Shown: one piece after another, positions 8,774 through 53,303 of the stretch | How positions within the stretch are numbered: position 1 is the first letter of the stretch | Layout: each line of letters starts with the position of its first letter | NCBI GenBank assembly: GCA_021791675.1 | Contig: JAJYWE010000004.1 | Coordinates: 28,054 to 92,053, forward strand | Origin: Actinomycetes bacterium | Lineage (GTDB): Bacteria > Actinomycetota > Acidimicrobiia > Acidimicrobiales > JAKAOS01 | Direction: 5' to 3' | DNA: 64,000 nt | The notes under the pieces: model-generated | Database searches by the model: none | What the model saw: the letters and a program-made list of their open reading frames with translations, nothing else | What the model was told of the DNA's origin: nothing | Translations under genes and position numbers: made by a program

Positions 8774-8902
8774 GCGCCCAGGCTTGCCAACCACCCAGGT
8801 TGCAGCAAGGGGCAACCGCAGTAGCGCTCAGGTGCGACTCAGATCACACAACCCTCCCAGCCCTCGTCCCTCTGCAGCGCTCGGCGCCAGAACCGTTGGT
8901 GG

Positions 8903-23764: not shown

Positions 23765-25644
23765 GAGTCGCCACCTACACCCGGATCTCCACCGACGAGG
23801 CCCACCAGCCCTACTCCCTCGAAGCCCAGGCCACCCGGCTCGGCTCCTACATCGCCAGCCAGGACGACTGGAGCTTGGTCCGCCAGTTCTCCGACCAGGC
23901 CTCCGGGGCGAGCACCGAGCGCCCCGAGCTCACCCGGGCACTCACCGAGGCCCGAGCCGGACGCTTCGACCTGCTCCTCGTCTACCGGGTGGACCGCTTC
24001 GCCCGCTCGGTGCGCGGCCTGGCCACCCTCCTCGAGCAACTGGACTCTGCTGGGGTGGCGTTCCGCTCGGCCACCGAACCCTTCGACACCGCCACTCCCG
24101 CCGGGCGGATGATGGTCCAGATGCTCGGGGTGTTCGCCGAGTTCGAACGCTCGACGATCATCGACCGGGTCATCGCCGGCATGGAACGCAAAGCCGCCCG
24201 AGGCGAATGGTGCGGAGGGTCCCGCCCCTACGGCTACGCCATCGACCCGGCCAGCGGCCACCTCGTCCCCGTGGAGACCGAGGAGCCTGTCGTCAAGGCC
24301 ATCTTCGACCGCTACACCCGCGGCCGGGCGGGCTTGAAGACCGTCGCCAACTGGCTCAACACCCGAGGCCATCGCACCAAGAGCGGCAGGCCCTGGAACC
24401 ACATGGCCGTGCTCACCGTGCTGAGAAACCGGGCCTACCTGGGTGAGGTGTACTTCCGGGACGCCTACCACCCCGCCCCACACCGCCCGCTGGTCGATCC
24501 CGACACCTTCGATCTCGCGCAGCGTATCCTCGCCACCCGGGGCGAGGACTACTCGCATCGGGCCGCCAACGCCAGCGACTACCTGCTCGCCGGGCTGCTC
24601 ACCTGCGCCAGCTGCGGCAAGCGTTTCGTCGGCACCGCCGCGCATGGCAACCGCTACCGGTACCGCTACTACACCTGCTTCTCCCGCCAGCGCTACGGCA
24701 CCGACACCTGCAACGCCGAACGCCTCCCCGCCGACGCCCTCGACACCGCAGTCCTCAACGCCCTCCTCGACACCTACACCCGAACCGACCTGTTCGAAAC
24801 AGCATTGGCCGCCGGGGCCGAACGCGCCGGGGCGGTACGGGCCCAACACCAAGCCGAGCTCGCCGTCGTCGACGCCGAGGCCGCCCGGACCGAGGAGGCC
24901 ATCGAGCGCTACCTGCTCGCCTTCGAAGCCGGCACCCTGCCCGAAGCCCAATGCGGGCAGCGCATCCGGACCCTCGGCGCCAAAGCTGCCGAGCTGCGCA
25001 CCCGGCGGGCCGAGCTGGTCGATCTGATCGCCGCCGCCAAGGAACCCGAGGCGCAGCGGGCCACCCTCGACGCCATCCGCGACCACCTCGCCGAGACGAT
25101 CCGAAGTGGCGAGGCCGCCACCAAGAAGGGTCTCCTGCAGAACCTCGTCCACGACATCCGCGTCGAAGGCCGCCACAACATCAAGCCGTACTTCCGCCTA
25201 CCCATCGGGCCCACGACGGTGACGAACCCTGACCCCTCCACGCAGGGCCAAAAGGTTCGTACACCGTCAGGACCGGTGCCCCCGGCAGGACTCGAACCTG
25301 CGACCCGCTGCTTAGAAGGCGTCATGCGGGGCATCCACGGACGTCCAGGACCATATTTGGCCTGCCCAAACAGATCTGGAGCGAGCCCCACGACACCCCC
25401 TCTTCGCCCCCGGTGGCTACCGCTGTGGCTACCACCAACTCGACTACCTTCTCGGCTCAAGTCGTCGACCCCCTCGAGGCGGCTCGGTGCCAGTTCTCCC
25501 ACTCGTCGAGCCACCGTCGCTCCGCGGAGCGGCACGCCGCGACCCCGCTCGCCAACCCAGGGGGCCATCCTTCTGCGTAGCCCTGAGGGTCCTGCTCTCG
25601 CCAGCGCTGATAGTTGGCATTGTGGGCCGCTGTTCGTCTCCTGA
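23761..25644 (+). CDS. large serine recombinase (functional 3' end uncertain: the frame reads through the att/tRNA fragment)
   Basis: VATYTRISTDE nucleophile motif, a recombinase domain, a zinc ribbon CASCGKRF...YYTCFSRQRYGTDTC and a coiled coil. No stop occurs before 25642-25644. Confidence 0.9.
   Translation: MRVATYTRISTDEAHQPYSLEAQATRLGSYIASQDDWSLVRQFSDQASGASTERPELTRALTEARAGRFDLLLVYRVDRFARSVRGLATLLEQLDSAGVAFRSATEPFDTATPAGRMMVQMLGVFAEFERSTIIDRVIAGMERKAARGEWCGGSRPYGYAIDPASGHLVPVETEEPVVKAIFDRYTRGRAGLKTVANWLNTRGHRTKSGRPWNHMAVLTVLRNRAYLGEVYFRDAYHPAPHRPLVDPDTFDLAQRILATRGEDYSHRAANASDYLLAGLLTCASCGKRFVGTAAHGNRYRYRYYTCFSRQRYGTDTCNAERLPADALDTAVLNALLDTYTRTDLFETALAAGAERAGAVRAQHQAELAVVDAEAARTEEAIERYLLAFEAGTLPEAQCGQRIRTLGAKAAELRTRRAELVDLIAAAKEPEAQRATLDAIRDHLAETIRSGEAATKKGLLQNLVHDIRVEGRHNIKPYFRLPIGPTTVTNPDPSTQGQKVRTPSGPVPPAGLEPATRCLEGVMRGIHGRPGPYLACPNRSGASPTTPPLRPRWLPLWLPPTRLPSRLKSSTPSRRLGASSPTRRATVAPRSGTPRPRSPTQGAILLRSPEGPALASADSWHCGPLFVS
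25278..25320 (-). repeat. distal att repeat: 43-bp copy of the tRNA-Arg 3' half
   Basis: Identical to 53231-53273. Lacks the 5' half of the tRNA, so it is not a functional tRNA. Confidence 0.9.
25413..25433 (+). promoter_or_regulatory. putative integrase arm-type sites, distal end
   Basis: GTGGCTACC at 25413 and 25425 (12-bp spacing); related CGACTACC at 25441. Confidence 0.45.
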
Positions 25645-28544: not shown

Positions 28545-28574
28545 TGGGCTTCCCCCCGCAGGCCGGACACCGAT

Positions 28575-30564: not shown

Positions 30565-31554
30565 ATGAGCGTCACTCCTGTCGACACCACTCGTCCCACC
30601 CTTGCCGTGCCTCTCTTGGCCGCCGACCGCACCGCAGTCGAGGCCGCCTTGGCGGCGGCGCGGAGCCCGGCGACCCGCCGAGCCTACGAGAGCCAGATGG
30701 GTGCATGGACGCGGTGGGCCGGTGAGCGGGGCTATCCGCTCGGCCCGCCGGCCGAGCCCGAGCACCTCGCCGGATGGCTGGTGTGGCTCGCGCAGCAAGG
30801 GCGCTCGGCGAGCAGCATCGGCCAGGCCGCAGCGGCTATCTCCGCCGCCCACGCAGACGCCGGCATCCCCGATCCGACACAGCACCAAGGCGTCCGGCTC
30901 ACCCTCGCCGGCATCCGGCGCCAGGTCGGCACCGCACCCCGCCGGCTGGCGCACCCGCTCACCACAGACGAGATCCGCAGGATCGTGGACGGGATCAACC
31001 GTGACAGCCTGCGTGGCAAGCGGGACAGCGCACTGGTCCTGATCGGCTACGCGGGCGCGCTGCGCCGGAGCGAGCTGGCCGGCCTGAGGACCAGCGACCT
31101 GTCCATCAGGCCCGCTGGCATCGTCGTCACCATCCGCAGGAGTAAGACCGACCAGGTCTCCGCCGGCCAGGTCGTCGGGATCGCCCGTGGGCGATCACCT
31201 GTTACCGATCCCGTCGCCGCCGTGCGCGACTGGATCGGTGCGGCTGGACTGGATGGCGACAGGTGGCTCTACCCGACCATTGCGTGGTCGGACGCGCGGC
31301 CGCTCTGCCGGCCGATCCGTGGCGAGGACGTGTGCCGCATCCTCGTGCGCCGCGCAGCGGCGGTCGGACTCGGCGACCTGCCGATAAGCGGTCACTCACT
31401 CCGGGCCGGGCACGCCACCACGGCCGCCCGGGCGGGAGTGCCCGCCGACCGTCTGGCCCGGACGACGCGGCACCGCAGCCTGTCCAGCCTCGCTCGTTAC
31501 GTCCGACCGGCCGAGGCGCTGGCCGACACCAGCTCGGCCGATCTCGGCCTGTGA
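30565..31554 (+). CDS. tyrosine site-specific recombinase (second one in element B)
   Basis: SAM-like N-terminal domain; catalytic region ...LRRSELAGL...GHSLRAGHATTAA...RHRSLSSLARY (R, HxxR, Y). Confidence 0.8.
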   Translation: MSVTPVDTTRPTLAVPLLAADRTAVEAALAAARSPATRRAYESQMGAWTRWAGERGYPLGPPAEPEHLAGWLVWLAQQGRSASSIGQAAAAISAAHADAGIPDPTQHQGVRLTLAGIRRQVGTAPRRLAHPLTTDEIRRIVDGINRDSLRGKRDSALVLIGYAGALRRSELAGLRTSDLSIRPAGIVVTIRRSKTDQVSAGQVVGIARGRSPVTDPVAAVRDWIGAAGLDGDRWLYPTIAWSDARPLCRPIRGEDVCRILVRRAAAVGLGDLPISGHSLRAGHATTAARAGVPADRLARTTRHRSLSSLARYVRPAEALADTSSADLGL

Positions 31555-38231: not shown

Positions 38232-39977
38232 TCAGTCCTCCCACGTGTCGGGTGGTGGCGGTGGTGGCGTCGGTGGTGGCGTCAGGTCGGTGGTGGGGCA
38301 GGCTCCCCGCGGCACCCCGATCGCGTCGAGGCGGTCGGGGAGCGTCGATGGCGGCGCCCAGGCGACGCGGAGGCCGCAGACTTGGCCGCCCTCGGATGCG
38401 ACGACGCCGAGCCCTCGGCTGCGGCCATCATCCAGGAGTGCCAGCTCGGCCTGGGCCTGGCTCGGCTGGTCGCCGTCAAAGACCATCTCGAGTGCGATGC
38501 GAGACGGCAGCTGTCCCGGCGGACAGAGCTGCACCCTGGACGTGAGGTTGGAGCGCAGCTCACCATCGAGATATCGCGCATCAGGCCGCTGGGCGGCCAG
38601 GACCAGGTGGATCCCGACATAACGCGCCTCGCGGGCGAGCTTGCCGACGACGAGAGCGATGCCCGCCCGCTGGGCGTTGGCCGCCTCGAGCTCCTCGCGG
38701 CGCGGGTCGTCACGGGCGAGGGCCGGTGGGACGCGGGCCTCGATCACCGTCGAGACGTACTCGTCGATGATCACGAGCGTCGGAGCGACCCGCTCGCGCC
38801 GGCGCACATCCGCCGGCAGGTCTGACCACTTGCCGGCCTCGTAGGCCCTCAGCACACTCTTGCGTCGCTGGGCCTCGGCGTATATGTCGTCGAGGAGGGC
38901 GGCTGCCGGAGCTATGTCATCGGCCCACCCCGCCGCCGCGTAAGGGCGGAGCCGGATAAAATCGACCCCCCCCTTGATCCCATCCACGATCGCAAGACGG
39001 TGGCCACGCGCGAGTGCCTGGGCGGCGAGGGCGAGCAGCGCCACCGTCTTACCCGAGCCGGTGGCGCCCACGGCGAGGACGTGCGGGCCCGCGGTGAGGT
39101 CGAGCGCGACGGGCTCGCCGCTGGCGTCTCGCCCGAGCGGTAGCGATGCCCAGTCGCTGCTCATCGTGTCCGGCAGCTCCGCGAGTAGATCGACGGTCTC
39201 CGGCAGCCGAGCGGGCGGTCGGTAGACGGCGAGCCACCTGCCCGCCAGTGCGTCGTCCAACACGTCCCACCGCTCGTGGCCGCCGGGGAGCAGCGACGCG
39301 ACGAGTGCCCGGATCAGCTCGTCGCGCTTGACGCTAGGTGGTGTCCACGCCGGGCAACCCACGTCGATCGCTGCTACCGGCGCGCCCGGGTCGGGCGCCC
39401 AGGTCACCGCGACCTCTACCTCCCAGGGCGCCAGTCGCATCGCCGCAGCGATCCGATCGCGCAGCGTGGCTGTCCAAGGCCATATGCGCGCTGCCGACGC
39501 GCTGCCCGCGGGCACGTCCGCCCGGACGAGTCGCAGCCCTTGCATCAGCAGATGGGCGTCGAGCTCCTGTAGGTCCCGGTCGGACGTCCGGGCGGCGAGT
39601 GTGAGTGTACGACCGTCCCAGTGCGGTGCGGGGGTGGCCGAGCAGACGGCCTCCCGCGTCGCGTCCAGCCAGGCCACGGGGTGCATCTGGGCGCCGGTGT
39701 GCGAGGCGAGACGGGCGACGAGGCGAGCGGTGTCCTCTGGATCGCCGCGGAATCCCGGGGGCACGCGCACGCGCAGCGATGCCGGCGGCTCGGGGGCGGG
39801 CGGCGTGGCGTGATCTCGCCACGCGTCGAGCGCCTCGAACGCCTGCTCTTGCCCGCCGGTGAGGTGCTCCAGCTCGTCGATTGCCGCCGTGGCAGTCTGG
39901 TCGTCGTGCGCGTTGAGCGCGGCGTGGAGGCGAGCGCAGGCCGCCCAGATCACGGTCTCGGGCCGGGTGCGCATCAC
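38232..39977 (-). CDS. FtsK/SpoIIIE-family DNA translocase (TraB-like)
   Basis: Walker A AVGATGSGKTVAL, Walker B TLVIIDEY, and the LVLAAQRPD motif. No N-terminal TM. Confidence 0.85.
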   Translation of the reverse strand: MMRTRPETVIWAACARLHAALNAHDDQTATAAIDELEHLTGGQEQAFEALDAWRDHATPPAPEPPASLRVRVPPGFRGDPEDTARLVARLASHTGAQMHPVAWLDATREAVCSATPAPHWDGRTLTLAARTSDRDLQELDAHLLMQGLRLVRADVPAGSASAARIWPWTATLRDRIAAAMRLAPWEVEVAVTWAPDPGAPVAAIDVGCPAWTPPSVKRDELIRALVASLLPGGHERWDVLDDALAGRWLAVYRPPARLPETVDLLAELPDTMSSDWASLPLGRDASGEPVALDLTAGPHVLAVGATGSGKTVALLALAAQALARGHRLAIVDGIKGGVDFIRLRPYAAAGWADDIAPAAALLDDIYAEAQRRKSVLRAYEAGKWSDLPADVRRRERVAPTLVIIDEYVSTVIEARVPPALARDDPRREELEAANAQRAGIALVVGKLAREARYVGIHLVLAAQRPDARYLDGELRSNLTSRVQLCPPGQLPSRIALEMVFDGDQPSQAQAELALLDDGRSRGLGVVASEGGQVCGLRVAWAPPSTLPDRLDAIGVPRGACPTTDLTPPPTPPPPPPDTWED

Positions 39978-42797: not shown

Positions 42798-45700
42798 CTA
42801 GAACTCCCGGCGATCAAGCTGCTCGGGCTCGACCTCGATGTCATCGAGGTCGAACGCCGAGGCAGGAAACACCCAGCACCGCCGCGCATCGCGGACGCCC
42901 AGGGCTGCCGGGGCCCGACCCGTTGGCGTCGTGCCGGGCACCACGAGCGCCGCCAGGCTCCGCGCAACCTGCCGATCCGCAAGACCTCGCATACCAGCAG
43001 TTTCCCGAGCGGCTCTCACGCCCGTCGGGGTCAACAGGACGTGCCGCCCGTCCCGCGAGAGCCACCCGAGGTGCCGCCCGCACGCGTCCCAGCGGTACGT
43101 GGTGCCGCTCGGCCCGTCGGACTCGCTGAGCCGCCAGCCGAGGCGGAGCGGCCTGCTCTCCCGAGCAGACTGCTCCTCACCGGCGAGTGGGCAGCGCCCA
43201 TCGGCGCCGAGGAGGTGTCCTTGCTTGCCGGCGAGCATGTCGCGGACCGCAGCCAACACCCGGCGGCCCGGATCAGCGTCTTGGTGAGCCGCCGCCTGGG
43301 ATCTCGCAAGCGCAGCGCACAGCTCGCGCACTCGAGCGGACGGCGGCAGCACGTCCTCGCCGACCCCCATCTCTGCCAGGCACCGGCGCAAGGCGCCGAT
43401 GCCAGCGGAGATTGCGGCCACGGTCTCTCCCGAGCGACCGTGGCCAAGAGCTGCGTACGCAGGGCGCCACAGGCCGTCTCCGATGGCACTGATGGCGTCC
43501 AGGCCGCCACCCGCGTCGGCCTGGGCCGCCAGCCAGGCCAGGTAGTGCCCGATGAGCGACCGGGCCAGGCCCGGCACGGCCCAACGCGCTCTCCAAGCGT
43601 CGATTGGCGGGTTATCGCTCGCGAGCCGCAGATCGCCAGGGCCGATCTCGATCAAGACCGTGCGCTGTAGGACAGCGGCGTCCGACGGCGTGATCTCGCC
43701 CGTCCAGACCACCGTGGTGCGGGGCTCTCGCCCCGAGCGGAGCCCGCCCCGCCGAGTCCCCTTGGCCCCCGTCGTACCGCCGTAGGCGGCCTGTAGGAGC
43801 CCACTGAGGACCTCCGTGGTGGTCTCGTTGGCACGACCGTCGTGGTCGGTCAGTCGGTAGTCGTCCGCATAGACCACGCCGTCGCGGTGCCAGCCCGCGA
43901 GGACGAGCGCGCCGATTGTCGAGCTCGACTGGATCGATAGCGTGGCGACGCCCTTTTGGACCGCGACGGCGGCGGTCCAGGCCGCGGTCGCGGCCAGGAG
44001 GAGCGACTTGCCCGAGTCCGGCTCGCCGATGAGGCCGATCGAGGGACGGGTGGCGAGCCGGAGCGGCGCCGCAAAGACGGCCCCGAGGAGAGCGAGACCA
44101 ACCTCCGGCCGGTCCGGAGCGATCCCGAGCCAGGCGGGGATCGCCAGGACTGCCTCGTCGAGCGGGGCCAAGGCGGGGGGCATCCCGGTTGCCGCTGCGA
44201 CGCCCGCAAGGGCGTCGTCGTCCGAGCCCACGGGCGGAGCCACCGCGGTGTCGTGGTCGACACCGCGTGCGTTGATCGATCCTCCGGGCGCCGCCCAGGT
44301 GGCGTGGTCGTCCTGCCATAGCCAGCCATTGAGCGCAGCGCGGGTCGTTACCGCCTGCTCTGCGTGCCCGAGGACGCGGAGCATATTGCCGACCCGCTGA
44401 GCATCCTGAGGCATAACGGGCAGCGCAACGCCAGCATTGAGCGCATCGACGACCCTGGCAGGAGACACACTGTCGGCCGCAGACAGGCCGTCGCGCCAAT
44501 ACCTACGACCGTCCCGACGGATCAGCTCGACCGCGTACTCGTCGATGCCGATCTGCGGTCGGCCCTGCTCGTCCACGCCGGCGGTCGTGCGGTGCTCCGG
44601 CCGCCACGCGATCCAGTCGGCCACAAGGTCGTCGGTCGGGATCGACTTGCCGTCGAGCCCGCGGGACCACGACCGGTGCCACAGGCCGTGCCGAGCCGAG
44701 CCGACCACGGCGATGCAGTCGCCGGGGAGCGCGATAGCAGTGCCGTCCGGGGCGCCGAGTGCCTCACCGAGAGCCGCGTCGGCGACGGGACTCTCCGCCT
44801 CGGCCAGGACGATCGGCGGGAGCCGATCCGGGACAGCGAGGACTGCTCGCAGATCTGCCGGCGAGCAGTCGGCGTGGTCGGCGAGCAGGCGGACGAGTGT
44901 GTCCTCGTCCGGGGCGAAACGTGCGACCTGGGCGGCGAGCCGGTAGTCGCCGCCGCAATAGGCGGCGGCGACGAAGGCAAACGAGTCGAGTGAGCTGCTG
45001 GGCTCGAGACCTAGGCGCTCGCAGGCGCTCGCCGAAAAAACGGTGAGCCGCTCGATGCCATCAGGATCCTCGTACGTCGCGGCTTGTACGGCTGAGCCGT
45101 GCGGCTCGGCCGGCTCGGCCCAGTGGCTCTGGCCGTCGGCTCCACCCACGCGCTCCCAGCCCAGGACACGCTCGAGGAGTACCGATACGGGGACGGCGGC
45201 GGCAAGCCGGTCTCCGGGCCGGTCGTTGTCCGCGTGGGCGACTCGGCGCTCTGGGAGGCGGCGAGTGGCCTGTCGAGCCGGTCGGGGCTGGAGCGGCGGC
45301 AGCCAAGCATCGAGCTCGTCGAGCGAGATGCGGCCGCCGGGGGCAGCGACGATCTCGACGGGCAGCGAATCGCATCCGGGCTTTCGCCGCGTGGTGCCCG
45401 CGACACGCAGCACCCGCGCGGGATCGGCAAGCACCCCCGCATCCAGATGGCGGCCGGCCACCTGGAAGGCGGCCACCCAGGCGGCCTTCCAGCGCTGCGC
45501 GAGCTGGCGTGGATCGTCGCTCGCGAGTGGCTCCGCGAGCGGCAGCCAGATGTGGCATCCGCCGCCGGTCTCGACGCGCATCCGCGGCCGGTCGCCGAGC
45601 AGGGCGGCGATGAGCTCGTCGGCCTCCTCCCGTGTCGGGAGGTTTTGAGCTGCATGGCCGGGGGCGGCCACGTCGACATCGGCAACGAGCGCGGGGTAGC

Positions 45701-45980
45701 CGAGAGCGCTCTGCTTACGTCCACGCCCGGGAGCGTCGCGCTCGCTCCCGGGCGTGGGGCAGATGCCGACGTAGACGTTCTCACCGCCGAGGTGCGCCAC
45801 CTCGGCGGTGAAGCGCTCAACGTCCGCCAGGGGCACGCGGTGGCCGCGTGCCGAGAACCCGGTGGCCGCGGAGCACAGAGCGATAAGCGCGTCGGCTGGA
45901 TAGGCCGACGCGAGCGGTGCCCAGATGTGGGCGTGGTGGTCGGCAGCGGTGCGCAGGTCGAGTGCAGTGCGGGTGGCCAT
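42798..45980 (-). CDS. primase-polymerase fused to P-loop helicase-type domain (replication initiator)
   Basis: Trimmed to ATG at 45980. Prim-pol motifs VYVGICP, LVADVDV and GGGCHIWLPL; Walker A GLIGEPDSGKSLLL in the centre. Confidence 0.75.
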   Translation of the reverse strand: MATRTALDLRTAADHHAHIWAPLASAYPADALIALCSAATGFSARGHRVPLADVERFTAEVAHLGGENVYVGICPTPGSERDAPGRGRKQSALGYPALVADVDVAAPGHAAQNLPTREEADELIAALLGDRPRMRVETGGGCHIWLPLAEPLASDDPRQLAQRWKAAWVAAFQVAGRHLDAGVLADPARVLRVAGTTRRKPGCDSLPVEIVAAPGGRISLDELDAWLPPLQPRPARQATRRLPERRVAHADNDRPGDRLAAAVPVSVLLERVLGWERVGGADGQSHWAEPAEPHGSAVQAATYEDPDGIERLTVFSASACERLGLEPSSSLDSFAFVAAAYCGGDYRLAAQVARFAPDEDTLVRLLADHADCSPADLRAVLAVPDRLPPIVLAEAESPVADAALGEALGAPDGTAIALPGDCIAVVGSARHGLWHRSWSRGLDGKSIPTDDLVADWIAWRPEHRTTAGVDEQGRPQIGIDEYAVELIRRDGRRYWRDGLSAADSVSPARVVDALNAGVALPVMPQDAQRVGNMLRVLGHAEQAVTTRAALNGWLWQDDHATWAAPGGSINARGVDHDTAVAPPVGSDDDALAGVAAATGMPPALAPLDEAVLAIPAWLGIAPDRPEVGLALLGAVFAAPLRLATRPSIGLIGEPDSGKSLLLAATAAWTAAVAVQKGVATLSIQSSSTIGALVLAGWHRDGVVYADDYRLTDHDGRANETTTEVLSGLLQAAYGGTTGAKGTRRGGLRSGREPRTTVVWTGEITPSDAAVLQRTVLIEIGPGDLRLASDNPPIDAWRARWAVPGLARSLIGHYLAWLAAQADAGGGLDAISAIGDGLWRPAYAALGHGRSGETVAAISAGIGALRRCLAEMGVGEDVLPPSARVRELCAALARSQAAAHQDADPGRRVLAAVRDMLAGKQGHLLGADGRCPLAGEEQSARESRPLRLGWRLSESDGPSGTTYRWDACGRHLGWLSRDGRHVLLTPTGVRAARETAGMRGLADRQVARSLAALVVPGTTPTGRAPAALGVRDARRCWVFPASAFDLDDIEVEPEQLDRREF

Positions 45981-46053
45981 GTGCACTATGAGGGCGGCGA
46001 GACGGCGCCTCACCCACCACGCGGCGAAAAAACACCCTACCTGACCTGCTGCC

Positions 46054-46530
46054 CCACGCAAAACCGCAGGTCAGACTATACGTTTTTTGGGTTTGGGACG
46101 GTTTGGACGAGTTGGGGCAAGACCCGTCCCAAGGTTTTTTGCCCTCTGAGCTGGGCGTCTATAAGGATAAATGTGTGTTGGGACAAGATCTCCTGTAGTA
46201 GAGAGGTCGCGTATAGAGACTCTCTCTCGATCACGATCCGCGATCCGCGATCTCCCCTATATACCCCCCCCTCTACCCCCAGAATCCGTCCCAACGTCCA
46301 AAACCCCCAAAACGTATAGTCTGACCTGCGGTTTTTGCGTGGACGGCCCTTGTCCCAACTCGTCCAAAAAGCGTCCCAGGAGCTCCCGATGCAGCAGTTT
46401 TTTGGCGGATCAACCAGGCTGTCCCAAAACCCCAAAACGTATAGTCTGACCTGCGGTTTTGCGTGGGACGGCCCTTGTCCCAACTCGTCCCAAAACGCCC
46501 AGATCCGTCCCAAAAGCTCCTGGTGCCCAG
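46054..46530. repeat. ori/clt-like region: GTCCCAA iterons, 33-bp repeat in three copies, AT-rich GATC-rich core
   Basis: AAAACGTATAGTCTGACCTGCGGTTTT(T)GCGTGG at 46309-46342 and 46434-46466, inverted at 46054-46088. At least 11 GTCCCAA/TTGGGAC copies. AT-rich core at 46158-46280. Confidence 0.7.
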
Positions 46531-46537
46531 TTTTGAG

Positions 46538-46785
46538 CGACCCCCTGTTTTTTTGCTGAGACAGCTGAGACAGGCAAAAAGGGCACTTGACCTGGGGTGC
46601 AGTGCCCGAGGGGTGTCACACCCGGCACGGAGAGCCGGGGCACCTCAACCGCCCCGCGCGTTTTCCGACGCGACCCCCCTGTTTTTTGCTGAGACAGCTG
46701 AGACAGGCAAAAAGGGCACTTGACCTGGGGTGCAGTGCCCGAGGGGTGTCACACCCGGCACGGAGAGCCGGGGCACCTCAACCGC
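46538..46785 (+). repeat. two near-identical 115-bp direct repeats (46538-46652, 46671-46785)
   Basis: The copies differ only in C/T homopolymer lengths. Each contains GCTGAGACA x2 and the palindromes GGGCACT..AGTGCCC, GGGTGT-C-ACACCC and CCGGC..GCCGG. Confidence 0.85.
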
Positions 46786-47166
46786 TCAGGCCCGCCCGAA
46801 TAGCCGCACCGCGAGCGTCTGCCGGGCGACCCCGAGGAGCGACGCGATGGCGAGTAGCCGCCCGGAGCGGCCCGGCGCTCCGGGCGGACCGACAACCTCG
46901 CGCGCCCGCGCCTCCGCTGCCCGGCTGAGGCGATCTGCGGCCGCCAGCGCGACCGCCGCTTGGACGAGCTCGTCGTCCAAGGCAGCGGGGGTGTTGTGCT
47001 CACCGCCTCGGTGTCGGGCGCCCGCCGCCGCGGCGGTGAGCGCCTCGGGCGGCACGACGGACGCAGCACTGTGGGCGGCGTCCGTGAGAGCGCGTTCGGC
47101 AGCGTCAGCCGCCTGGGCGACGGCGGGCTCGATCACGGGGTGTGGCGGTCGTCGGGATGGTGGCAC
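46786..47166 (-). CDS. putative HTH regulator
   Basis: C-terminal RLLAIASLLGVARQTLAVRLFG is HTH-like. Divergent from the small-protein genes across an operator-rich gap. Confidence 0.4.
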   Translation of the reverse strand: MPPSRRPPHPVIEPAVAQAADAAERALTDAAHSAASVVPPEALTAAAAGARHRGGEHNTPAALDDELVQAAVALAAADRLSRAAEARAREVVGPPGAPGRSGRLLAIASLLGVARQTLAVRLFGRA

Positions 47167-47173
47167 GGTTCAA

Positions 47174-47258
47174 TAGTAGCAGATGCCTACTACCGGGTGC
47201 AGGGCGTTGGTAGTTCTCTGCTACTATGGCGTTGACACCGTAGTAGTAGAGTGCTACT
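47174..47258. promoter_or_regulatory. TAGTAG/CTACTA inverted-repeat operator array
   Basis: TAGTAGCAGATGCCTACTA (47174-47192), GGTAGTTCTCTGCTACTA (47209-47226), GTAGTAGTAGAGTGCTACT (47240-47258). Confidence 0.55.
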
Positions 47259-47279
47259 CGTACAGAAGGAGGCCACGAG

Positions 47280-47606
47280 ATGAAGACGTTGGTTGCAATC
47301 CTGCTCGCCAGCGCTGGCTCGGGATGGGCGGCGTTCCAGCTCCTGCACGGCCAACTCGAGGCAGCCGTCGCGCATGCGGCGCTCGTCTCCGACGCTCGCA
47401 ACGCAGCGCTGTCGCTCGCCGGCGCTCAGCTCTCGACCGCCGCGGCGGCGTCGGCGCTGGCGGCCAGGGCCATGCCGTCGGCGGCCGGTCGCGTGGACTT
47501 CAGCGCTGCGCCTGACACCAACGCGGTGGTCCCCTGGGCGATCACCGCGTGCGAGGTCGGCACCCGCGTGTGCGCCACCTGGTCGCCCGCAGCAGCCAAC
47601 AGTTGA
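47280..47606 (+). CDS. small secreted/membrane protein, paralogue 1
   Basis: AGAAGGAGG RBS, N-terminal hydrophobic segment, conserved C-terminal WAITACEVGTRVCATWSP. Confidence 0.6.
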   Translation: MKTLVAILLASAGSGWAAFQLLHGQLEAAVAHAALVSDARNAALSLAGAQLSTAAAASALAARAMPSAAGRVDFSAAPDTNAVVPWAITACEVGTRVCATWSPAAANS

Positions 47607-47669
47607 TCCGTCCGCTTTGGAGGGGCGGGCGAGGTGCCGCCCTCATAGGTAGTAGAAGGAGGCCACAAC

Positions 47670-48002
47670 ATGAAGTACCTGATCTGGATCCTCGGGATCA
47701 CGATGGCGCTGGTCTGGATCTCGCTCTGGCTCGTACGGGCGGCGCTCGGGTCGCAGACCTTGGCGACGCCCGCTCTCGTCACCGACGCGCAGCAGGTGAG
47801 CTACGCGGTCGCCGGCGCGCAGGCGCAGACCGCGACCGCCGCGACCGCCCTCGCCAACGCCGCGGAGCCGGGGCTGCGCGGGATCATCTCCTTCCGGGCA
47901 TCGCCCGATGCGGGCGGCGTGGCGGCGTGGGCGATCACCGCGTGCGAGGTCGCTCATCCCACCGTGTGCGCCACCTACTCGCCCACCGAGGCGATCGGCT
48001 GA
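47670..48002 (+). CDS. small secreted/membrane protein, paralogue 2
   Basis: Same RBS context (GTAGTAGAAGGAGGCCACAAC-ATG); C-terminal WAITACEVAHPTVCATYSP. 11-mer CCGCCCTCATA at 47637-47647. Confidence 0.6.
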   Translation: MKYLIWILGITMALVWISLWLVRAALGSQTLATPALVTDAQQVSYAVAGAQAQTATAATALANAAEPGLRGIISFRASPDAGGVAAWAITACEVAHPTVCATYSPTEAIG

Positions 48003-49817: not shown

Positions 49818-51897
49818 CTAGGTGGGCGGTGTCTTTCGCGAGCCCGGAGACTCGCGATCCAAAGCCCCGCGTGAGAGAATGACAGGCATGGAGTTCTCCT
49901 GGTCGAAGGCCCTTCGGTGAGCCTCGGGGTGGCGAGCCGCCAGGGCAGCCTGCTCGACGACATCGAGGCGTTCTGCGATCGGACGCTGCCCGTGAACTCG
50001 ATCTACTCGCTGTTGCATCGCGAACGCGATCGGCTCTTCCCCGACGAGCTGTTCGCGGATCTCTTCTCCGATCGGGGCCGGCGCAGTGTGCCGCCGTCGG
50101 TGGTGGCGACGGTGATGGTGCTCCAGCGCCTGGAGGGACTCTCCGATCGTGAGGCGGTCGAGCGCTACGCCTTCGACACCCGCTGGCGCTACGCCGCGGG
50201 GGTGGGTGGCTACGACGGCGACGGGTGGACGAGCTTCGCGCACACGGTGCTGGTCGACTTCCGCGCCCGGCTCGCGGCCTCCGACGATCCCCGGCGGATC
50301 TTCGCGGTGACGCTGGACGCGGCGAGCGAAGCGGGCCTCGTCGGCGCGAAGAGGGTGTTGGACTCGACGCCGCTCTACGACGCGGTGGCGACCATGGACA
50401 CCGTCACCCTGATCCGCTCGGCGATCCGCTCGGTGCTGAAGGCCGCCGAGGGCTCCTTGGAGGCGGAGCTGTCTTCGCTGATCCGAAGCGGGGACGACGA
50501 CGCGAGCGCGGCGAAGCCCCGGATCGACTGGGACGACGAGAAAGCCCGCGAGGCACTGATCGACGCGGTCGCGAAGGACGGCCGTGCCATCCTGACCCAC
50601 TTCGACGGAGCGCACCTCGAGGGGCCACTCGCCGAGGCGGTCGAGCTGTTGGCCACGGTCTTGGGCCAGGACGTCGACGTCGGCGACGACGGGGTGTTCC
50701 GCATCGCGAGGCGGGTGGCGCCTGACCGGGTGATCTCGACGGTCGATCCCGAGACCCGCCACGGCCACAAGACGCAAGCGAAGGGCTTCGACGGCTACAA
50801 GGGCCACGCGGCCATCGATCCCGACAGCGAGCTCATCACCGCGACCACCGTCACGGCCGGCAACGTCGGCGATGCTGCGGCGGCAGCCGAGCTGATCGAG
50901 GATCTCACCGGCACCGACGAGGCGGACAGCGACACCGGCACCGCTTCGGACAACCCCGAGGCGCCGAGCACGGGACAGCTGGACGGGGAGCCCGCCCAGG
51001 CCCGACCGAACCGCCAGGGCGGTGGCGGTGGCCGGCGCCGGGCGAAGTCGGCCAAGAACGCTGCGGCAGCCCGGACCGCTCGGGCAGCAGCGCGCGAGGC
51101 ACGCCGCCGAGCACGAGCGAAGCGTCGCAGGGACGCATCGTCCCGGCTCGGCGACGATGCCCCGAAGGTCTACGGTGACGGCGCGTACGGCTCGGGGGAG
51201 TTCCTCGACCACCTCGCCCGAGCGGGCATCGAGCACCGCTGCAAGACCCAGCGGCCGGTCAACGCCACCGGGCTCTTCGCGAAGGACCGCTTCGCGATCG
51301 ACCTCGCCGCCGAGACGGTCACCTGCCCCGCCGGCGAGGTGGCCCCCATCCGCCGCAACCGCAGAGGCGACGGCGTCGCCCGCTTCGCCTCCGCGTGTCG
51401 CAGCTGTCCCCTGCGAGAAGAGTGCACCACATCTCCCGGCGGGCGGAGCATCACCGTGGGACGCTACGAGGCCCACCTCGCCGAAGCCCGAGCGAAGGCC
51501 GCGGATCCCGCATGGCTCGAGGACTACCGAGCCACCCGCCCGAAGGTCGAGCGCAAGCTCGCACACCTCATGCGACGCCACCACGGCGGACGGCGTGCCC
51601 GGGTGCGCGGCAGCGCCAAGGTCGGTGCCGACTTCAACCTCCTCGCTGCCGCGGTGAACCTCGCCCGACTCGCCGTGCTCGAGCTCACCTCCACTCCGAA
51701 GGGATGGGCGGCGGCGATGGACTGAGAGACCCGAGGGATGGAGCAGGGAAGGAGCCCACGTCCATGGGGCTCCGTCCTCGCAGCCCTCGACGCCACTTGT
51801 CACCAGAGCCCACCCCCTCCCAGCATCGAAGCCACCAGGAGCTGCCATGACCGTGACACCGTGTTCACCAGCCAGCCGTTTCACACCGCCCACCTAG
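49818..51897 (+). mobile_element. IS1182-family insertion sequence (coordinates include both flanking CTAG copies)
   Basis: Perfect 15-bp inverted termini CTAGGTGGGCGGTGT (49818-49832) and ACACCGCCCACCTAG (51883-51897), with CTAG at both junctions. Confidence 0.85.
49917..51725 (+). CDS. IS1182-family DDE transposase
   Basis: N-terminal LLDDIEAFCDRTLPVNSIYSLL...VMVLQRLEGLSDREAVERYAFDTRWRYA and the DDE region STVDPETRHGHKT..GYKGHAAID. Confidence 0.85.
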   Translation: MSLGVASRQGSLLDDIEAFCDRTLPVNSIYSLLHRERDRLFPDELFADLFSDRGRRSVPPSVVATVMVLQRLEGLSDREAVERYAFDTRWRYAAGVGGYDGDGWTSFAHTVLVDFRARLAASDDPRRIFAVTLDAASEAGLVGAKRVLDSTPLYDAVATMDTVTLIRSAIRSVLKAAEGSLEAELSSLIRSGDDDASAAKPRIDWDDEKAREALIDAVAKDGRAILTHFDGAHLEGPLAEAVELLATVLGQDVDVGDDGVFRIARRVAPDRVISTVDPETRHGHKTQAKGFDGYKGHAAIDPDSELITATTVTAGNVGDAAAAAELIEDLTGTDEADSDTGTASDNPEAPSTGQLDGEPAQARPNRQGGGGGRRRAKSAKNAAAARTARAAAREARRRARAKRRRDASSRLGDDAPKVYGDGAYGSGEFLDHLARAGIEHRCKTQRPVNATGLFAKDRFAIDLAAETVTCPAGEVAPIRRNRRGDGVARFASACRSCPLREECTTSPGGRSITVGRYEAHLAEARAKAADPAWLEDYRATRPKVERKLAHLMRRHHGGRRARVRGSAKVGADFNLLAAAVNLARLAVLELTSTPKGWAAAMD

Positions 51898-52809
51898 GCG
51901 GGCCGCTGCCTGCTCGGCCCGGTGCTGGGCGAGCTCCACCACGAGCGGACCGGGTAACCCGAGCAGGCGGTGCCCGGCTGCGGATTTCGGCTCGGCAAGG
52001 TCTGGGCCGCCGCCCCATCGGGCGGGGCAGTGGCTGGCTCCGGGGCCAGGCGCCCTGCAGCTCGGCGTCCCGAGCGCCGCCCCCGCACAGCCGTGCCTCC
52101 ATGGGCGCCACTGCAACTGACATCGCACGGCCACGGTCTCACGGTCGAGGTCGAGGTCTTGCCAACGCAACCCAAGCGCCTCCCCCTGGCGGAGCCCGAG
52201 TGCCAAGGCGACCGACCAGCGAGCGCCTTGCGGACCACGGCGGGCCGCAGCAAGCACACGGCGGGCCTCGTCGACGGTGAGCGGCTGGGGCTCTCGCGGT
52301 GGCGGCGTGCGTGGCAGGCGTGCCCGCGCGACAGCGTGCGGTGCCGGGAGCAGGCCGTCGCGCACGGCCGCCGAGAGAGCGGCAGAGAGCGTCCGACGGA
52401 TGTGCGTGATGCTCGCTCCGCCGAGGCCATCCGCCAGTAGGCGTCCGTATAACTGCTCGACGTCGCTGGGACTGAGGCGGTCCAGGCGTCCGCCCGACGC
52501 CCCGAGACGCCGGGCGTCCAAACGGTAGCCGCGCATCGTCGTTGGGCGGACGCGCTGCTCCTGCCCGGCAATCCAGTGCTCCAACCACTCGGCGACGGTC
52601 GGCATCCGGCCGTCCCGGCGGCAGCCCGCGTCGCGCGACTGCTCAATCTCCCGGACCTTGGCCGCAACAGCCGAGCGCGTGCGCCCCCGGACGTGCTTCC
52701 GACGGCGCCGCCCGTCGGGACCGACACCGAGGGAGATCCACCCCTCCCAGCCTCCATCCACCGAGCGGTGGATGGAGGACCGCCCATCGGCCCCTTTCGC
52801 GGAGCTCAT
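51898..52809 (-). pseudogene. int: tyrosine integrase of element B, 5' fragment
   Basis: ATG at 52809 (1-nt overlap with the xis stop). Arm-binding-like and SAM-like N-terminal domains, then the Arg region ALALGLRQGEALGLRW. Truncated by the IS. Confidence 0.85.
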
Positions 52810-53099
52810 CAGGCAGCGCCGTCGGTGAGCTCCGCGACCAAGGCATCGACTGCTGCCCGCGGGACCAAACGCCGGCGCCCCGGTCGCGTCGAGGCGAGGC
52901 AGCCAGCCGCAATGAGCTCCCACACGCGGCTCCGGCTGACGCGCAGCTCCGCCGCAGCCTCCTCGACGGTGAGCAGGGTGTGGGCGGCTACCGGCGGTGC
53001 CTCGCCGGCAGCCTCCAGCGCAGCTTGGGCAGCCTCCAGCGCCGCCTGGGCGGCGGCGACGGCCCGGCGGGCGGACTCGACAGCATTCGGAGAAACCAT
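52809..53099 (-). CDS. xis: excisionase-family DNA-binding protein
   Basis: LLTVEEAAAELRVSRSRVWELIAAGCLASTRPGRRRLV is the MerR-type excisionase HTH. ATG at 53099. Confidence 0.75.
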   Translation of the reverse strand: MVSPNAVESARRAVAAAQAALEAAQAALEAAGEAPPVAAHTLLTVEEAAAELRVSRSRVWELIAAGCLASTRPGRRRLVPRAAVDALVAELTDGAA

Positions 53100-53168: not shown

Positions 53169-53229
53169 AACGACGGAGCTTCGGACCGTCTCAGGAGCAC
53201 CACACCGGCACTGACCTGCCCTTGGTGAG

Positions 53230-53303
53230 CGCCCCCGGCAGGACTCGAACCTGCGACCCGCTGCTTAGAAGGCAGCCGCTCTGTCCAGCTGAGCTACAGG
53301 GGC
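53230..53303 (-). tRNA. tRNA-Arg (anticodon UCU)
   Basis: Hand-folded cloverleaf: acceptor GCCCCTG/CGGGGGC, D arm GCTC/GAGC, anticodon arm GCTGC-CTTCTAA-GCAGC, T arm GCAGG-TTCGAGT-CCTGC. No encoded CCA. Confidence 0.9.

What the first reader, a model, noticed from the sequence alone, without database searches (positions are those of the whole stretch)
46054..46530. Iteron-dense, inverted-repeat-flanked AT-rich region next to the primase-polymerase gene: candidate ori and/or clt
Seen:
- A 33-bp unit AAAACGTATAGTCTGACCTGCGGTTTTGCGTGG occurs twice directly (46309, 46434) and once inverted (46054). The inverted copy brackets about 220 bp.
- That 220 bp contains the least GC-rich stretch of the region (46158-46280), with five GATC sites and GCGATCC repeats.
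- GTCCCAA/TTGGGAC heptamers occur at least 11 times.
- The repeat blocks 46288-46370 and 46421-46495 are about 75-bp direct repeats.
Established: Rep-adjacent iterons with an AT-rich unwinding element mark plasmid/AICE origins. Streptomyces TraB proteins recognise arrays of short direct repeats (clt).
Inference: the heptamer array is the binding array for either the prim-pol/helicase or the FtsK-like translocase.
Basis: partly seen in the sequence, partly recalled or inferred. Interest (0 to 1): 0.6.

Follow-up and report, generated by a model that had tools for sequence, protein, structure and literature searches.

The report
Replication origin of an integrated mobile element
The repeat-dense, low-GC stretch beside the primase-helicase gene is most likely the replication start site of a 28-kb mobile element sitting in a tRNA gene; this is a familiar kind of origin, here paired with a replication protein family that has no database annotation.

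Summary
The 33-bp unit, the ~75-bp direct repeats, the low-GC core and the GATC cluster are all present. The exact heptamer GTCCCAA/TTGGGAC occurs 9 times, not 11 or more; the looser word GTCC[C/A]A occurs 14 times. Shuffled sequence never exceeded 6, and the genome has no other such cluster.

The region lies inside a 28-kb element bounded by a 43-bp repeat of the tRNA-Arg 3' end. It sits just upstream of a 1060-aa Rep: an N-terminal primase-polymerase fused to a helicase whose predicted fold best matches SCCmec Cch, then SaPI PriRep and viral SF3 helicases.

Opposed arrays of short words around the local GC minimum recur next to Rep relatives in seven other loci. One of these is a relaxase/T4SS-type element with no FtsK-like pump in the 23 kb read. 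Two elements whose pumps are 62% identical have unrelated Reps and different words. The arrays therefore follow Rep, not the pump.

Verdict: a SaPI/pWTY27-type iteron origin (about 0.75). The clt reading is not supported, but dual use is not excluded. The core of the 33-bp unit, CTGACCTGCGG, is conserved in relatives and remains unexplained.

This scan has already found SaPI-like origins on other DNA several times. This is a new member of a known kind, of moderate interest.

The parts
42798..45980 (-). rep: 1060-aa replication protein. It has an N-terminal AEP primase-polymerase (DVDV, GGGCHIW and LADPxR motifs) fused to a P-loop helicase (GEPDSGKS) and a C-terminal beta/alpha domain.
   Evidence: ORF and translation. 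PHROG 2478 'DNA polymerase/primase', aa 29-225, E 7.7e-15; phrog_1139, aa 632-779. No Pfam, NCBIfam or PDB sequence hit. Conserved motifs. AF2 model plus Foldseek: best match SCCmec Cch 5dgk at E 2e-10, then SV40 LTag, SaPI5 PriRep 7ola and AsfvPrimPol.
46048..46131 (.). Left arm (unit U1, inverted relative to U2 and U3). It holds the inverted 33-bp unit with the CTGACCTGCGG box at 46053-46086. Iterons lie at 46094(-), 46103(-) and 46126(+), with a degenerate TTGGGGC at 46112.
   Evidence: Inverted repeats I1-I4; iteron map; unit alignment.
46132..46287 (.). Low-GC core (52.6% GC), the presumed DNA-unwinding region. Contents in order: T6 run; CCTCTGAGCTGGGC box at 46143-46156; inner iteron TTGGGAC at 46178-46184; AGAGAG / TATAGAGACTCTCTCTC tract at 46200-46228; a run of CGATC 6-7-mers at 46228-46255; then CCTATATA followed by a C run.
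   Evidence: Sequence; GC figures. The 14-mer box is unique in the genome. It is identical in L007 at the same position and with the same 21-nt spacing to the next iteron. GA/CT tracts lie inside 6 of 10 ori-like regions.
46283..46400 (.). Right arm unit U2. Iterons at 46288, 46296, 46352, 46362 and 46373 (all +), and the 33-bp unit at 46309-46342.
46404..46530 (.). Right arm unit U3. Iterons at 46421(+), 46464(-), 46477, 46487 and 46507 (+), and the 33-bp unit at 46434-46466.
46537..46785 (.). Two 116-nt direct repeats (97% identical), each predicted to fold into a three-way hairpin structure. They lie between the iteron field and the small HTH-tailed gene at 46786-47166(-). Their role is unknown (auxiliary origin element, operator or small RNA).
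   Evidence: Repeat family D1. Folding z-scores of -1.7 to -2.6. No Rfam match. No other copy in the genome.
38232..39977 (-). Context: the element's FtsK/SpoIIIE-type DNA translocase (TraB-like pump), the alternative candidate binder. No array of short words lies beside it.
   Evidence: PF01580 at E 2e-15; weak hit to NF041214 plasmid_TraB; array scans.
25278..25320 (.). Context: attL, a 43-bp exact copy of the tRNA-Arg 3' part. It marks the left border of the 28-kb element.
   Evidence: blastn of the tRNA region against the window.
53231..53273 (.). Context: attR, lying within tRNA-Arg(TCT) at 53229-53303(-). It marks the right border of the element, next to the integrase fragment at 51865-52923(-).

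Best explanation
The stretch 46048-46530 is the vegetative replication origin of a 28-kb element integrated in tRNA-Arg. The flanking 116-nt repeats may also contribute.

Shown: two opposed sets of the 6-7-bp word GTCC(C/A)A(A), spaced about one helical turn apart, flank a low-GC core. The region abuts the start of a gene for a primase-polymerase fused to a Cch/SaPI-Rep-like helicase. The same layout recurs beside relatives of that gene, and the word changes with the Rep.

Inferred by analogy with SaPI Rep/PriRep and pWTY27 RepA: after excision, Rep oligomers bind the iterons on both sides through the C-terminal DNA-binding domain. They distort and melt the low-GC core. The helicase loads itself onto the opened strands. 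The fused AEP domain lays down the first primers, and host polymerase then extends them in both directions.

The iterons nearest rep probably also let Rep repress its own promoter. The conserved non-iteron boxes (CCTCTGAGCTGGGC, the GA/CT tract, CTGACCTGCGG) are likely auxiliary sites, for example for melting, primer start or an accessory factor. What binds them is unknown.
For: Repeat statistics: 14 sites against at most 6 in 2000 shuffles, and the only such cluster in a 3.1-Mb genome.

Core composition: 52.6% GC, and the second-lowest 40-bp GC window in 64 kb.

Coding potential: ORFs across the region have GC3 of 0.51-0.64, against 0.8-0.94 for real genes, so the region is non-coding.

Rep identity: PHROG primase/polymerase hit at E 7.7e-15; invariant DxD, GGGxH and Walker A motifs; helicase fold matching Cch, SaPI PriRep, SV40 LTag and D5.

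Comparative evidence: opposed word arrays around the GC minimum of the DNA read lie next to Rep relatives in several loci.
- L007: TGTCCCA/TGGGACA, 12 copies, plus the identical 14-mer box at the same position.
- L005: GGCC(T/A)AA, 8 copies, around (TA)7.
- L016: GGGAC.
- L025: CTGTCCA x6 / core / TGGACAG x6.
- L024: TGCCAGG / CCTGGCA.
- L030: ATCACCGA-type words.

L007 carries a TrwC relaxase and a T4SS coupling protein, and only Rep is shared with the window's element. The pumps of L024 and L025 are 62% identical, yet their Reps give no BLASTP match and their words differ. The arrays lie downstream of rep in L024 and L025 and upstream in the others, and the module is flipped relative to rep between the window and L007. 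It therefore behaves as an independent cis module, not as a rep promoter.

Precedents: SaPI origins are about 300 bp, with penta- or hexanucleotide iterons opposed around an AT-rich region and bound by the winged helix of a self-loading helicase (PMC9371898; bioRxiv 10.64898/2026.10.17.759575). pWTY27 has repA/repB (prim-pol) plus a 300-bp iteron region (GTGGGAAC/TTCCCAC) that RepA footprints, while its clt sits at the tra gene (PMC3583192).
Against: There is no functional data of any kind.

The AF2 model is poor over the primase domain (pLDDT below 50), and the C-terminal DNA-binding domain was not identified as a winged helix on its own.

Sequence similarity between the window's region and those of relatives is modest: local alignment z of about 3.5 against shuffles, driven largely by the iterons. 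The 14-mer box is shared exactly only with L007.

Several Rep relatives (L008/L009, L010, L014, L015, L017) show only weak arrays or none in the DNA available.

Iteron orientation relative to the core is divergent in the window and L007 but convergent in L025.

The integrase appears to be split by an IS, so the element may no longer excise and the origin may be idle.
Confidence: 0.75

Rival explanations
1. [quoted passage not shown] In this reading the FtsK/TraB-like pump (38232-39977) recognises the repeated words through a C-terminal winged helix and translocates the double-stranded element into the recipient. The array would serve either as clt alone, or as both origin and clt.
For: Known clt loci are arrays of 7-9-bp direct repeats with inverted repeats (PMC3583192, and the clt papers it cites). 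This is the only strong short-word array in the 28-kb element, and none lies next to the pump gene. The exact 11-mer CTGACCTGCGG, the core of the 33-bp unit, recurs in the equivalent regions of two other pump-bearing elements, L024 and L025.
Against: The array is about 6 kb from the pump gene and abuts rep. The same GTCCCA architecture occurs in L007, a TrwC/T4CP element with no pump homologue in the 23 kb read. L024 and L025 have 62%-identical pumps but different array words that follow their unrelated Reps. L030 has a pump homologue and a Rep-adjacent array but no CTGACCTGC box in it. Characterised clt loci sit in or beside the tra gene (PMC3583192). No FtsK gamma / winged-helix domain was detected in the pump.
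Confidence: 0.1
2. The region is a transcription-control field, not an origin. In this reading the repeats are operators or promoter modules for rep and for the neighbouring small HTH-tailed gene, bound by Rep or by that regulator.
For: The array lies between two genes on the same strand and within about 70 bp of the rep start. Each 33-bp unit contains a -10-like TATAGT, and U1 points it towards rep. An earlier case in this scan (e1-1185846) turned out to be a promoter array rather than an origin.
Against: The sigma-70-type scan found no promoter-like site. In L024 and L025 the arrays lie downstream of rep, and the module is flipped relative to rep in L007. The words are 6-7 bp at helical spacing, in opposed sets around the GC minimum, not promoter-sized modules. 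Autoregulation through origin iterons is compatible with the origin reading.
Confidence: 0.07
3. The words are host DnaA boxes. In this reading the element borrows the host initiator, as some plasmids do, and the array is a DnaA-dependent origin or a DnaA-titrating site.
For: TTGTCCCAA and TCGTCCAAA differ from the actinobacterial DnaA box TTGTCCACA (own knowledge) at two positions. L025's word CTGTCCA(C/G) is closer still. The host's dnaA region carries the genome's only perfect TTGTCCACA, plus near variants.
Against: No site in 45900-46900 is within one mismatch of TTGTCCACA, and two-mismatch sites are common background (93 in 64 kb). The words differ between related elements (GGCCTAA, CCTGGCA, ATCACCGA) and follow the Rep, not the host.
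Confidence: 0.03
4. The array is a partition (centromere-like) site bound by a ParR/ParB-type adaptor.
For: Plasmid centromeres are also arrays of short repeats in two sets (own knowledge).
Against: No ParA- or ParB-type gene was detected among the element ORFs scanned. The array recurs next to rep in unrelated backbones. An integrated element has little need for partition.
Confidence: 0.02

Closest known systems
SaPI / PICI Pri-Rep-ori replicons and SCCmec Cch/CcPol (Staphylococcus aureus islands; PriRep5 of SaPI5, PDB 7OLA; Cch, PDB 5DGK)
   Same: Both are integrated elements that carry their own primase and a self-loading helicase-initiator; in PriRep5 the two are fused. The origin is a non-coding stretch of about 300-500 bp next to rep, with 5-7-bp iterons in opposed sets around a low-GC region, some of them inverted within an arm (PMC9371898; bioRxiv 10.64898/2026.10.17.759575). 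The helicase part of the Rep model matches Cch best, then SaPI5 PriRep.
   Different: There is no detectable sequence similarity. The primase here is an AEP prim-pol. The host is a 72%-GC actinobacterium, so the 'AT-rich' core is still 52% GC. The origin lies upstream of rep, not downstream. The arms are built from three units of roughly 85-120 bp that also carry a 33-bp non-iteron box. The element moves by an FtsK-like pump rather than by phage packaging.
Streptomyces theta plasmid pWTY27 (repA, repB prim-pol, 300-bp iteron region; PMC3583192), and pFP1/pFP11-type rep-iteron loci
   Same: Both are actinomycete replicons with a prim-pol gene and an adjacent iteron field of about 300 bp. The field is one 7-8-bp word on both strands (GTGGGAAC/TTCCCAC, against GTCCCAA/TTGGGAC here), with long inverted repeats and AT-rich stretches. 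In pWTY27, RepA footprints the long inverted repeat. That plasmid also has an FtsK-like Tra, whose clt is a separate locus at the tra gene.
   Different: pWTY27 splits the functions between RepA (the binder) and RepB (the prim-pol). Here one 1060-aa fusion carries a helicase. No sequence match was found in the plasmid collection. Nothing here has been tested experimentally.
AICE Prim-Pol replication modules (te Poele 2008, PMC2440964; Ghinet 2011, PMC3218068)
   Same: The element is tRNA-integrated, with a tyrosine integrase, an FtsK/SpoIIIE Tra and a prim-pol-type replication gene.
   Different: The published AICE Prim-Pols are defined by PF09250 and are mostly short, paired with RepAM or RepPP. 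This Rep does not hit PF09250 and is fused to a helicase. Those reviews describe no origin for Prim-Pol AICEs. At 28 kb this element is larger and carries a sortase/adhesin module.
Streptomyces clt / TraB recognition sequences (pSVH1, pIJ101, pJV1, pWTY27)
   Same: These are also arrays of short direct repeats with inverted repeats, in an element encoding an FtsK-like translocase.
   Different: The location is beside rep, not tra. The array follows Rep, not the pump, across relatives.

Membership tests
Iteron origin served by a self-loading helicase-initiator (SaPI/PICI type) | Many copies of one short (5-8 bp) word, far above chance, in a non-coding stretch | tested here: met
   14 GTCC[C/A]A sites in 483 bp, against a mean of 0.84 and a maximum of 6 in 2000 shuffles. 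It is the only such cluster in the genome. ORFs across the region have GC3 of 0.51-0.64.
Iteron origin served by a self-loading helicase-initiator (SaPI/PICI type) | Iterons on both sides of an AT-rich (locally GC-poorest) region, pointing in opposite directions | tested here: met
   Minus-oriented sites at 46094, 46103 and 46179 lie on the left; plus-oriented sites at 46288-46507 lie on the right. The core at 46132-46287 is 52.6% GC against 72.5% for the window.
Iteron origin served by a self-loading helicase-initiator (SaPI/PICI type) | Immediately adjacent to the rep (primase/helicase) gene, with the association kept in relatives | tested here: met
   The first arm starts 68 bp from the rep ATG. 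Arrays lie next to Rep relatives in L005, L007, L016, L024, L025 and L030. Arrays are weak or absent in L008-L010 and L014-L017.
Iteron origin served by a self-loading helicase-initiator (SaPI/PICI type) | Rep is an SF3/MCM-like hexameric helicase with a C-terminal winged-helix DNA-binding domain | tested here: inconclusive
   Foldseek gives Cch 5dgk at E 2e-10 (TM 0.47 on the target), then SV40 LTag and SaPI5 PriRep. The whole model has mean pLDDT 58.6. The C-terminal beta/alpha domain (aa 949-1040) was not tested separately.
Iteron origin served by a self-loading helicase-initiator (SaPI/PICI type) | Rep binds the iterons and the fragment supports autonomous replication | not testable with these tools
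   This needs EMSA or footprinting and a replication assay.
clt / TraB recognition-sequence array of Streptomyces-type conjugation | Located within or directly beside the tra (FtsK-like) gene | tested here: not met
   The pump gene is at 38232-39977 and the array at 46048-46530, with five or more ORFs including rep in between. No repeated 7-8-mer array lies around the pump gene.
clt / TraB recognition-sequence array of Streptomyces-type conjugation | The repeated word co-varies with, and co-occurs with, the translocase | tested here: not met
   L007 has the same word but a TrwC/T4CP system. L024 and L025 have pumps 62% identical but the words CCTGGCA and CTGTCCA.
clt / TraB recognition-sequence array of Streptomyces-type conjugation | Required in cis for transfer and bound by the translocase | not testable with these tools
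   This needs mating and binding assays.
Archaeo-eukaryotic primase (AEP) prim-pol | Catalytic motifs I (DxD), II (sGxGxH) and III (hD), conserved across relatives | tested here: met
   ALVADVDV (D101, D103), TGGGCHIW (G139-G141, H143) and LDAGVLAD are conserved in the alignments. PHROG 2478 'DNA polymerase/primase' hits at E 7.7e-15.
Archaeo-eukaryotic primase (AEP) prim-pol | Match to the curated Pfam/NCBIfam prim-pol models (e.g. PF09250), or to a solved AEP structure | tested here: not met
   There are no Pfam, NCBIfam or PDB-sequence hits. The AF2 N-terminal domain has pLDDT below 50, so the fold could not be compared.
AICE (actinomycete integrative and conjugative element) | Integrase plus att repeat at a tRNA gene, an FtsK/SpoIIIE Tra, and a Rep module | tested here: met
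   A 43-bp direct repeat of the tRNA-Arg 3' end lies at 25278 and 53231. Also present are a tyrosine-integrase fragment, a PF01580 pump and the Rep. The integrase is interrupted by a DDE transposase gene.
DnaA-box cluster | Several sites within one mismatch of the host DnaA box (TTGTCCACA type) | tested here: not met
   There are 0 sites with at most 1 mismatch in 45900-46900. The host dnaA region has the genome's only perfect box.

The most novel reading that the evidence does not exclude
The 33-bp unit is a second cis site, separate from the iterons. Its core, CTGACCTGCGG, sits once in each arm. It recurs exactly in the equivalent arms of two other elements (L024, L025). Those two have different iterons and unrelated Rep helicase halves, but their FtsK-like pumps are related. 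The box could therefore be the pump's recognition site (clt) built into the origin, which would physically couple replication with double-stranded DNA transfer. Alternatively it could be the template start signal of the AEP primase.
Probability: 0.12. Interest if true: 0.6.

Novelty: new member of a known kind. Interest (0 to 1): 0.36.

Why it matters
No origin has been described for AICE-type elements with prim-pol replication genes; the 2008 review says it is not even known whether those proteins replicate the elements. This locus offers a concrete, testable origin for a prim-pol/helicase fusion that no curated family model recognises. The family is nevertheless not small: 545 clusters at 50% identity score E ≤ 1e-30 in the representative library.

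The comparative set gives paired Rep and word variants: GTCCCAA, TGTCCCA, CTGTCCA, GGCCTAA, CCTGGCA and ATCACCGA. These could be used to work out how the family's DNA-binding domain reads its origin, and to build shuttle vectors for poorly tractable high-GC actinobacteria. As a biological principle it is ordinary: another iteron origin of the SaPI/pWTY27 kind.

Tried and rejected
- DNA search of 46000-46800, and tblastn of Rep, against the plasmid collection: no match.
- Pfam and NCBIfam on Rep and on the neighbouring small ORFs: nothing.
- A profile of four Reps against PDB sequences: only marginal AAA+ hits.
- Rfam over 45500-47500: nothing in the region.
- Sigma-70 promoter scan: none. The two terminator-like sites are no more than the shuffles give.
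- Rep in 400 genomes of the same class: none.
- Single-strand folding of the three arms: not better than shuffles (z from -0.35 to -1.05), so a cruciform or hairpin reading of the arms has no support. The 116-nt repeats fold moderately well (z from -1.7 to -2.6).
- Search for a clt-like array near the pump gene: only chance-level GC-rich 8-mers.
- DnaA-box reading: rejected.
- Smith-Waterman of the region against the ori-like regions of relatives: only z 0.8-3.7. I therefore claim shared architecture plus short boxes, not alignable homology.
- One pump homologue (P0015) was not on record for context.
Full report
**1. The observation**

- The 27-mer AAAACGTATAGTCTGACCTGCGGTTTT is exact at 46309 and 46434, and inverted at 46060. 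With its GCGTGG tail, the inverted 33-mer spans 46053-46086. It lies 222 bp from the first direct copy.
- 46296-46370 and 46421-46495 are 75-nt direct repeats, 89% identical.
- When the three units are aligned they turn out to be periods of one array of roughly 125 bp. Each period holds the 33-bp unit flanked by pairs or triplets of the short word. One period (U1, 46048-46131) is inverted relative to the other two (U2, 46283-46400; U3, 46404-46530).
The word GTCC[C/A]A occurs 14 times, spaced 8-11 bp within clusters.
- This is far beyond chance. In 2000 dinucleotide-preserving shuffles the mean was 0.84 and the maximum 6. The commonest 7-mer occurs 9 times, against at most 4 in shuffles. In the whole 3.1-Mb assembly no other 500-bp stretch holds more than two copies.
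- The stretch between U1 and U2 (46132-46287) is 52.6% GC in a 72.5% GC window, and it contains the second-lowest 40-bp GC window of the 64 kb.
- The five GATC sites are real. The 'GCGATCC repeats' are a degenerate run of about four CGATC-containing 6-7-mers (46228-46255).
- ORFs that cross the region have GC3 of 0.51-0.64, against 0.8-0.94 for neighbouring genes, so the region is non-coding.

**2. Context**

A 43-bp exact direct repeat (25278-25320 and 53231-53273) copies the 3' part of tRNA-Arg(TCT). It delimits a 28-kb integrated element. The element carries:
- a tyrosine-integrase fragment next to the tRNA, interrupted by a DDE transposase gene;
- an FtsK/SpoIIIE-type translocase at 38232-39977;
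- a sortase and a giant surface protein;
- the 1060-aa ORF at 42798-45980(-), whose ATG lies 68 bp from U1.

**3. The neighbouring gene**

The 1060-aa protein hits no Pfam or NCBIfam model and no PDB sequence. The evidence for its identity is as follows.
- PHROG 2478 'DNA polymerase/primase' matches residues 29-225 at E 7.7e-15, and phrog_1139 'DNA primase' matches residues 632-779.
- Alignments with relatives keep the AEP motifs (ADVDV, GGGxH, LDxGxLAD) and a Walker A motif (GEPDSGKS).
- An AlphaFold model is poor over the primase part but confident over residues 550-1040. Foldseek places that part with the SCCmec Cch helicase (5dgk, E 2e-10). The next matches are SV40 large T, SaPI5 primase-helicase, AsfvPrimPol, poxvirus D5 and PriRep1.
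- The family is rare in isolate genomes: 0 of 400 genomes of the same class, and only three homologues in the word-indexed protein search. It is not small in metagenomes, however: 545 clusters at 50% identity score E ≤ 1e-30, either fused or split into primase and helicase genes.

**4. Does the array go with Rep or with the pump?**

Rep relatives:
- L007 (Rep 32% identical) lies on a 64-kb contig with a TrwC relaxase, a VirD4-type coupling protein and PolA. The 8030-8480 stretch between the relaxase gene and rep holds 12 TGTCCCA/TGGGACA words in opposed sets around the GC minimum of the 23 kb read, an (AT)n run.
- L007 also shares an exact 14-mer with the window, CCTCTGAGCTGGGC. In both it follows GTCCCA and a six-base A/T run, and it lies 21 nt before the next TTGGGACA. 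That 14-mer is unique in the window's genome.
- L005 (Rep 45% identical) has 8 copies of GGCC(T/A)AA, a two-substitution variant of GTCC(C/A)AA. They lie in opposed sets around TATATATATATATA.
- L016 has GGGAC-bearing tandem units, then a GATA/TATA/(CT)16/poly-C core.
- By tblastn, Rep is the only protein the window's element shares with these loci.

Pump relatives:
- L025 (pump 47% identical) has a 931-aa Rep related to the helicase half of ours. Directly after it comes CTGTCCA x6, then a low-GC core, then TGGACAG x6.
- L024 (pump 50% identical) has a D5_N-type Rep related only to our primase half. Directly after it come TGCCAGG/CCTGGCA sets.
- L030 has the Rep split into two genes, preceded by opposed ATCACCGA-type words around a low-GC core.
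- The pumps of L024 and L025 are 62% identical to each other, while their Reps give no BLASTP match and their words differ.

So the word and the array follow Rep, and apparently its C-terminal half, not the pump. The array also persists where conjugation is relaxase/T4SS-based. The module lies upstream of rep in some loci and downstream in others, and it is flipped relative to rep between the window and L007. That fits an autonomous cis module better than a rep promoter.

Caveats:
- Several Rep relatives (L008/L009, L010, L014, L015, L017) show only weak word clusters in the DNA available.
- Local alignment scores between the regions are only z 0.8-3.7 above shuffles.
- Word orientation relative to the core is divergent here and in L007, but convergent in L025.

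**5. Mechanism**

The closest characterised systems are two.
- The SaPI/SCCmec replicons. A self-loading helicase (fused to the primase in PriRep5) binds 5-7-bp iterons, opposed around an AT-rich region of an origin of about 300 bp. It binds through a C-terminal winged helix, presumably one hexamer per side, and melts the DNA without ATP (PMC9371898; bioRxiv 10.64898/2026.10.17.759575).
- Streptomyces plasmid pWTY27. The repA-repB (prim-pol) locus needs an adjacent 300-bp iteron field made of GTGGGAAC/TTCCCAC words and long inverted repeats, which RepA footprints. Its clt is a separate 175-bp locus at the end of the tra gene (PMC3583192).

By analogy I infer the following sequence. Rep oligomers bind the GTCC(C/A)A sets on both sides. 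The 52%-GC core melts. The helicase loads itself, the AEP domain primes, and host polymerase extends in both directions. The rep-proximal iterons also allow autorepression. None of these steps is shown here; only the anatomy and its co-occurrence with Rep are.

**6. Rivals**

- clt, alone or dual-use, about 0.10. In its favour, this is the only strong array in the element, and the CTGACCTGCGG box is exact in three pump-bearing elements. Against it are location, co-occurrence and co-variation, as set out above.
- A pure regulatory array, about 0.07. No promoter consensus was found, and the arrays lie downstream of rep in L024 and L025.
- Host DnaA boxes, about 0.03. The word resembles TTGTCCACA at 7 of 9 positions, but no site is within one mismatch, whereas the host dnaA region has genuine boxes. 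The words also differ among relatives.
- A partition site, about 0.02. No par genes were found.

**7. What stays unexplained**

- The 33-bp unit. Its core CTGACCTGC(G)G occurs four times in the window's region and once or twice in the equivalent regions of L025, L024, L007 and L016. It is independent of the iteron word.
- A GA/CT tract lies inside the core in 6 of 10 loci.
- GATCAC-type words recur in the cores of the window and L007, and are themselves the iteron of L030.
- The two 116-nt structured repeats (46537-46785) have no counterpart in Rfam or elsewhere in the genome.

**8. Novelty and verdict**

This is a SaPI/pWTY27-type iteron origin in a tRNA-integrated element with an FtsK-type pump, in an uncultured high-GC actinobacterium. 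It is served by a primase-helicase family that curated family models do not recognise.

Reviews of AICEs list Prim-Pol modules but describe no origin for them (PMC2440964, PMC3218068). The scan's own notebook shows that similar origins beside prim-pol/helicase genes have already been found several times on other DNA. So the kind is known and recurrent. I rate this a new member of a known kind, with confidence about 0.75 for the origin reading and interest about 0.36.

Noticed in passing
window 46537-46785: Two 116-nt direct repeats (97% identical) lie between the iteron field and the small gene at 46786-47166(-). Each is predicted to fold into a three-way hairpin structure (DNA folding z from -1.7 to -2.6). 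There is no Rfam match and no other copy in the genome. L007 has a different tandem array (52 bp x 6, 8719-9048) in the equivalent place beside its ori-like module.
   Followed up: partly
Further copies lie beside attR in the window (53212) and just past the integrase gene in L025 (19628). What binds it is unknown.
   Followed up: partly
window 25278-25320 and 53231-53273: A 43-bp exact direct repeat of the tRNA-Arg(TCT) 3' part marks the att sites of a 28-kb integrated element.
   Followed up: yes
window 49917-51725 (+): A DDE transposase gene (DDE_Tnp_1_6, DUF772) lies between the integrase-like fragment at 51865-52923(-) and the ORFs to its left. The element's integrase seems to be interrupted by an IS, so excision may be impaired. 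Further transposase genes lie at 26973-28601 and 28575-29738, and a second tyrosine recombinase at 30565-31554.
   Followed up: partly
window 45987-45997: TATGAGGGCGG (CCGCCCTCATA on the rep strand) ends 6 nt before the rep ATG. It may be the -10 region of a leaderless rep transcript.
   Followed up: no
window 46786-47166 (-): A 126-aa ORF has no family hit but ends in an HTH-like tail (...GRLLAIASLLGVARQTLAVRLFGRA). It lies directly upstream of the origin region on the rep strand and is a candidate regulator or accessory origin-binding protein.
   Followed up: no
L030 977-4362: In this pump-bearing relative, the Rep is split into a 421-aa primase gene and a 707-aa helicase gene. The representative search likewise lists many standalone N-terminal (about 350-450 aa) and C-terminal (about 580-730 aa) relatives. 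The fusion is therefore one of two common arrangements of a family with no Pfam hit but at least 545 clusters at E ≤ 1e-30.
   Followed up: partly
G000 contig C124, about 10190-10440 and 11780-11850: The host dnaA region carries the genome's only perfect TTGTCCACA, plus near variants (TCGTCCACA, CTTTCCACA, ATTTCCACA). This is the probable chromosomal oriC.
   Followed up: partly
window 47220-47280 and 47645-47670: Two small paralogous genes (47280-47606 and 47670-48002, +) have near-identical GTAGTAGAAGGAGGCCAC-ATGAAG starts. A palindrome, CAGCGCTG, occurs three times at a spacing of 95-97 bp inside the first gene.
   Followed up: no
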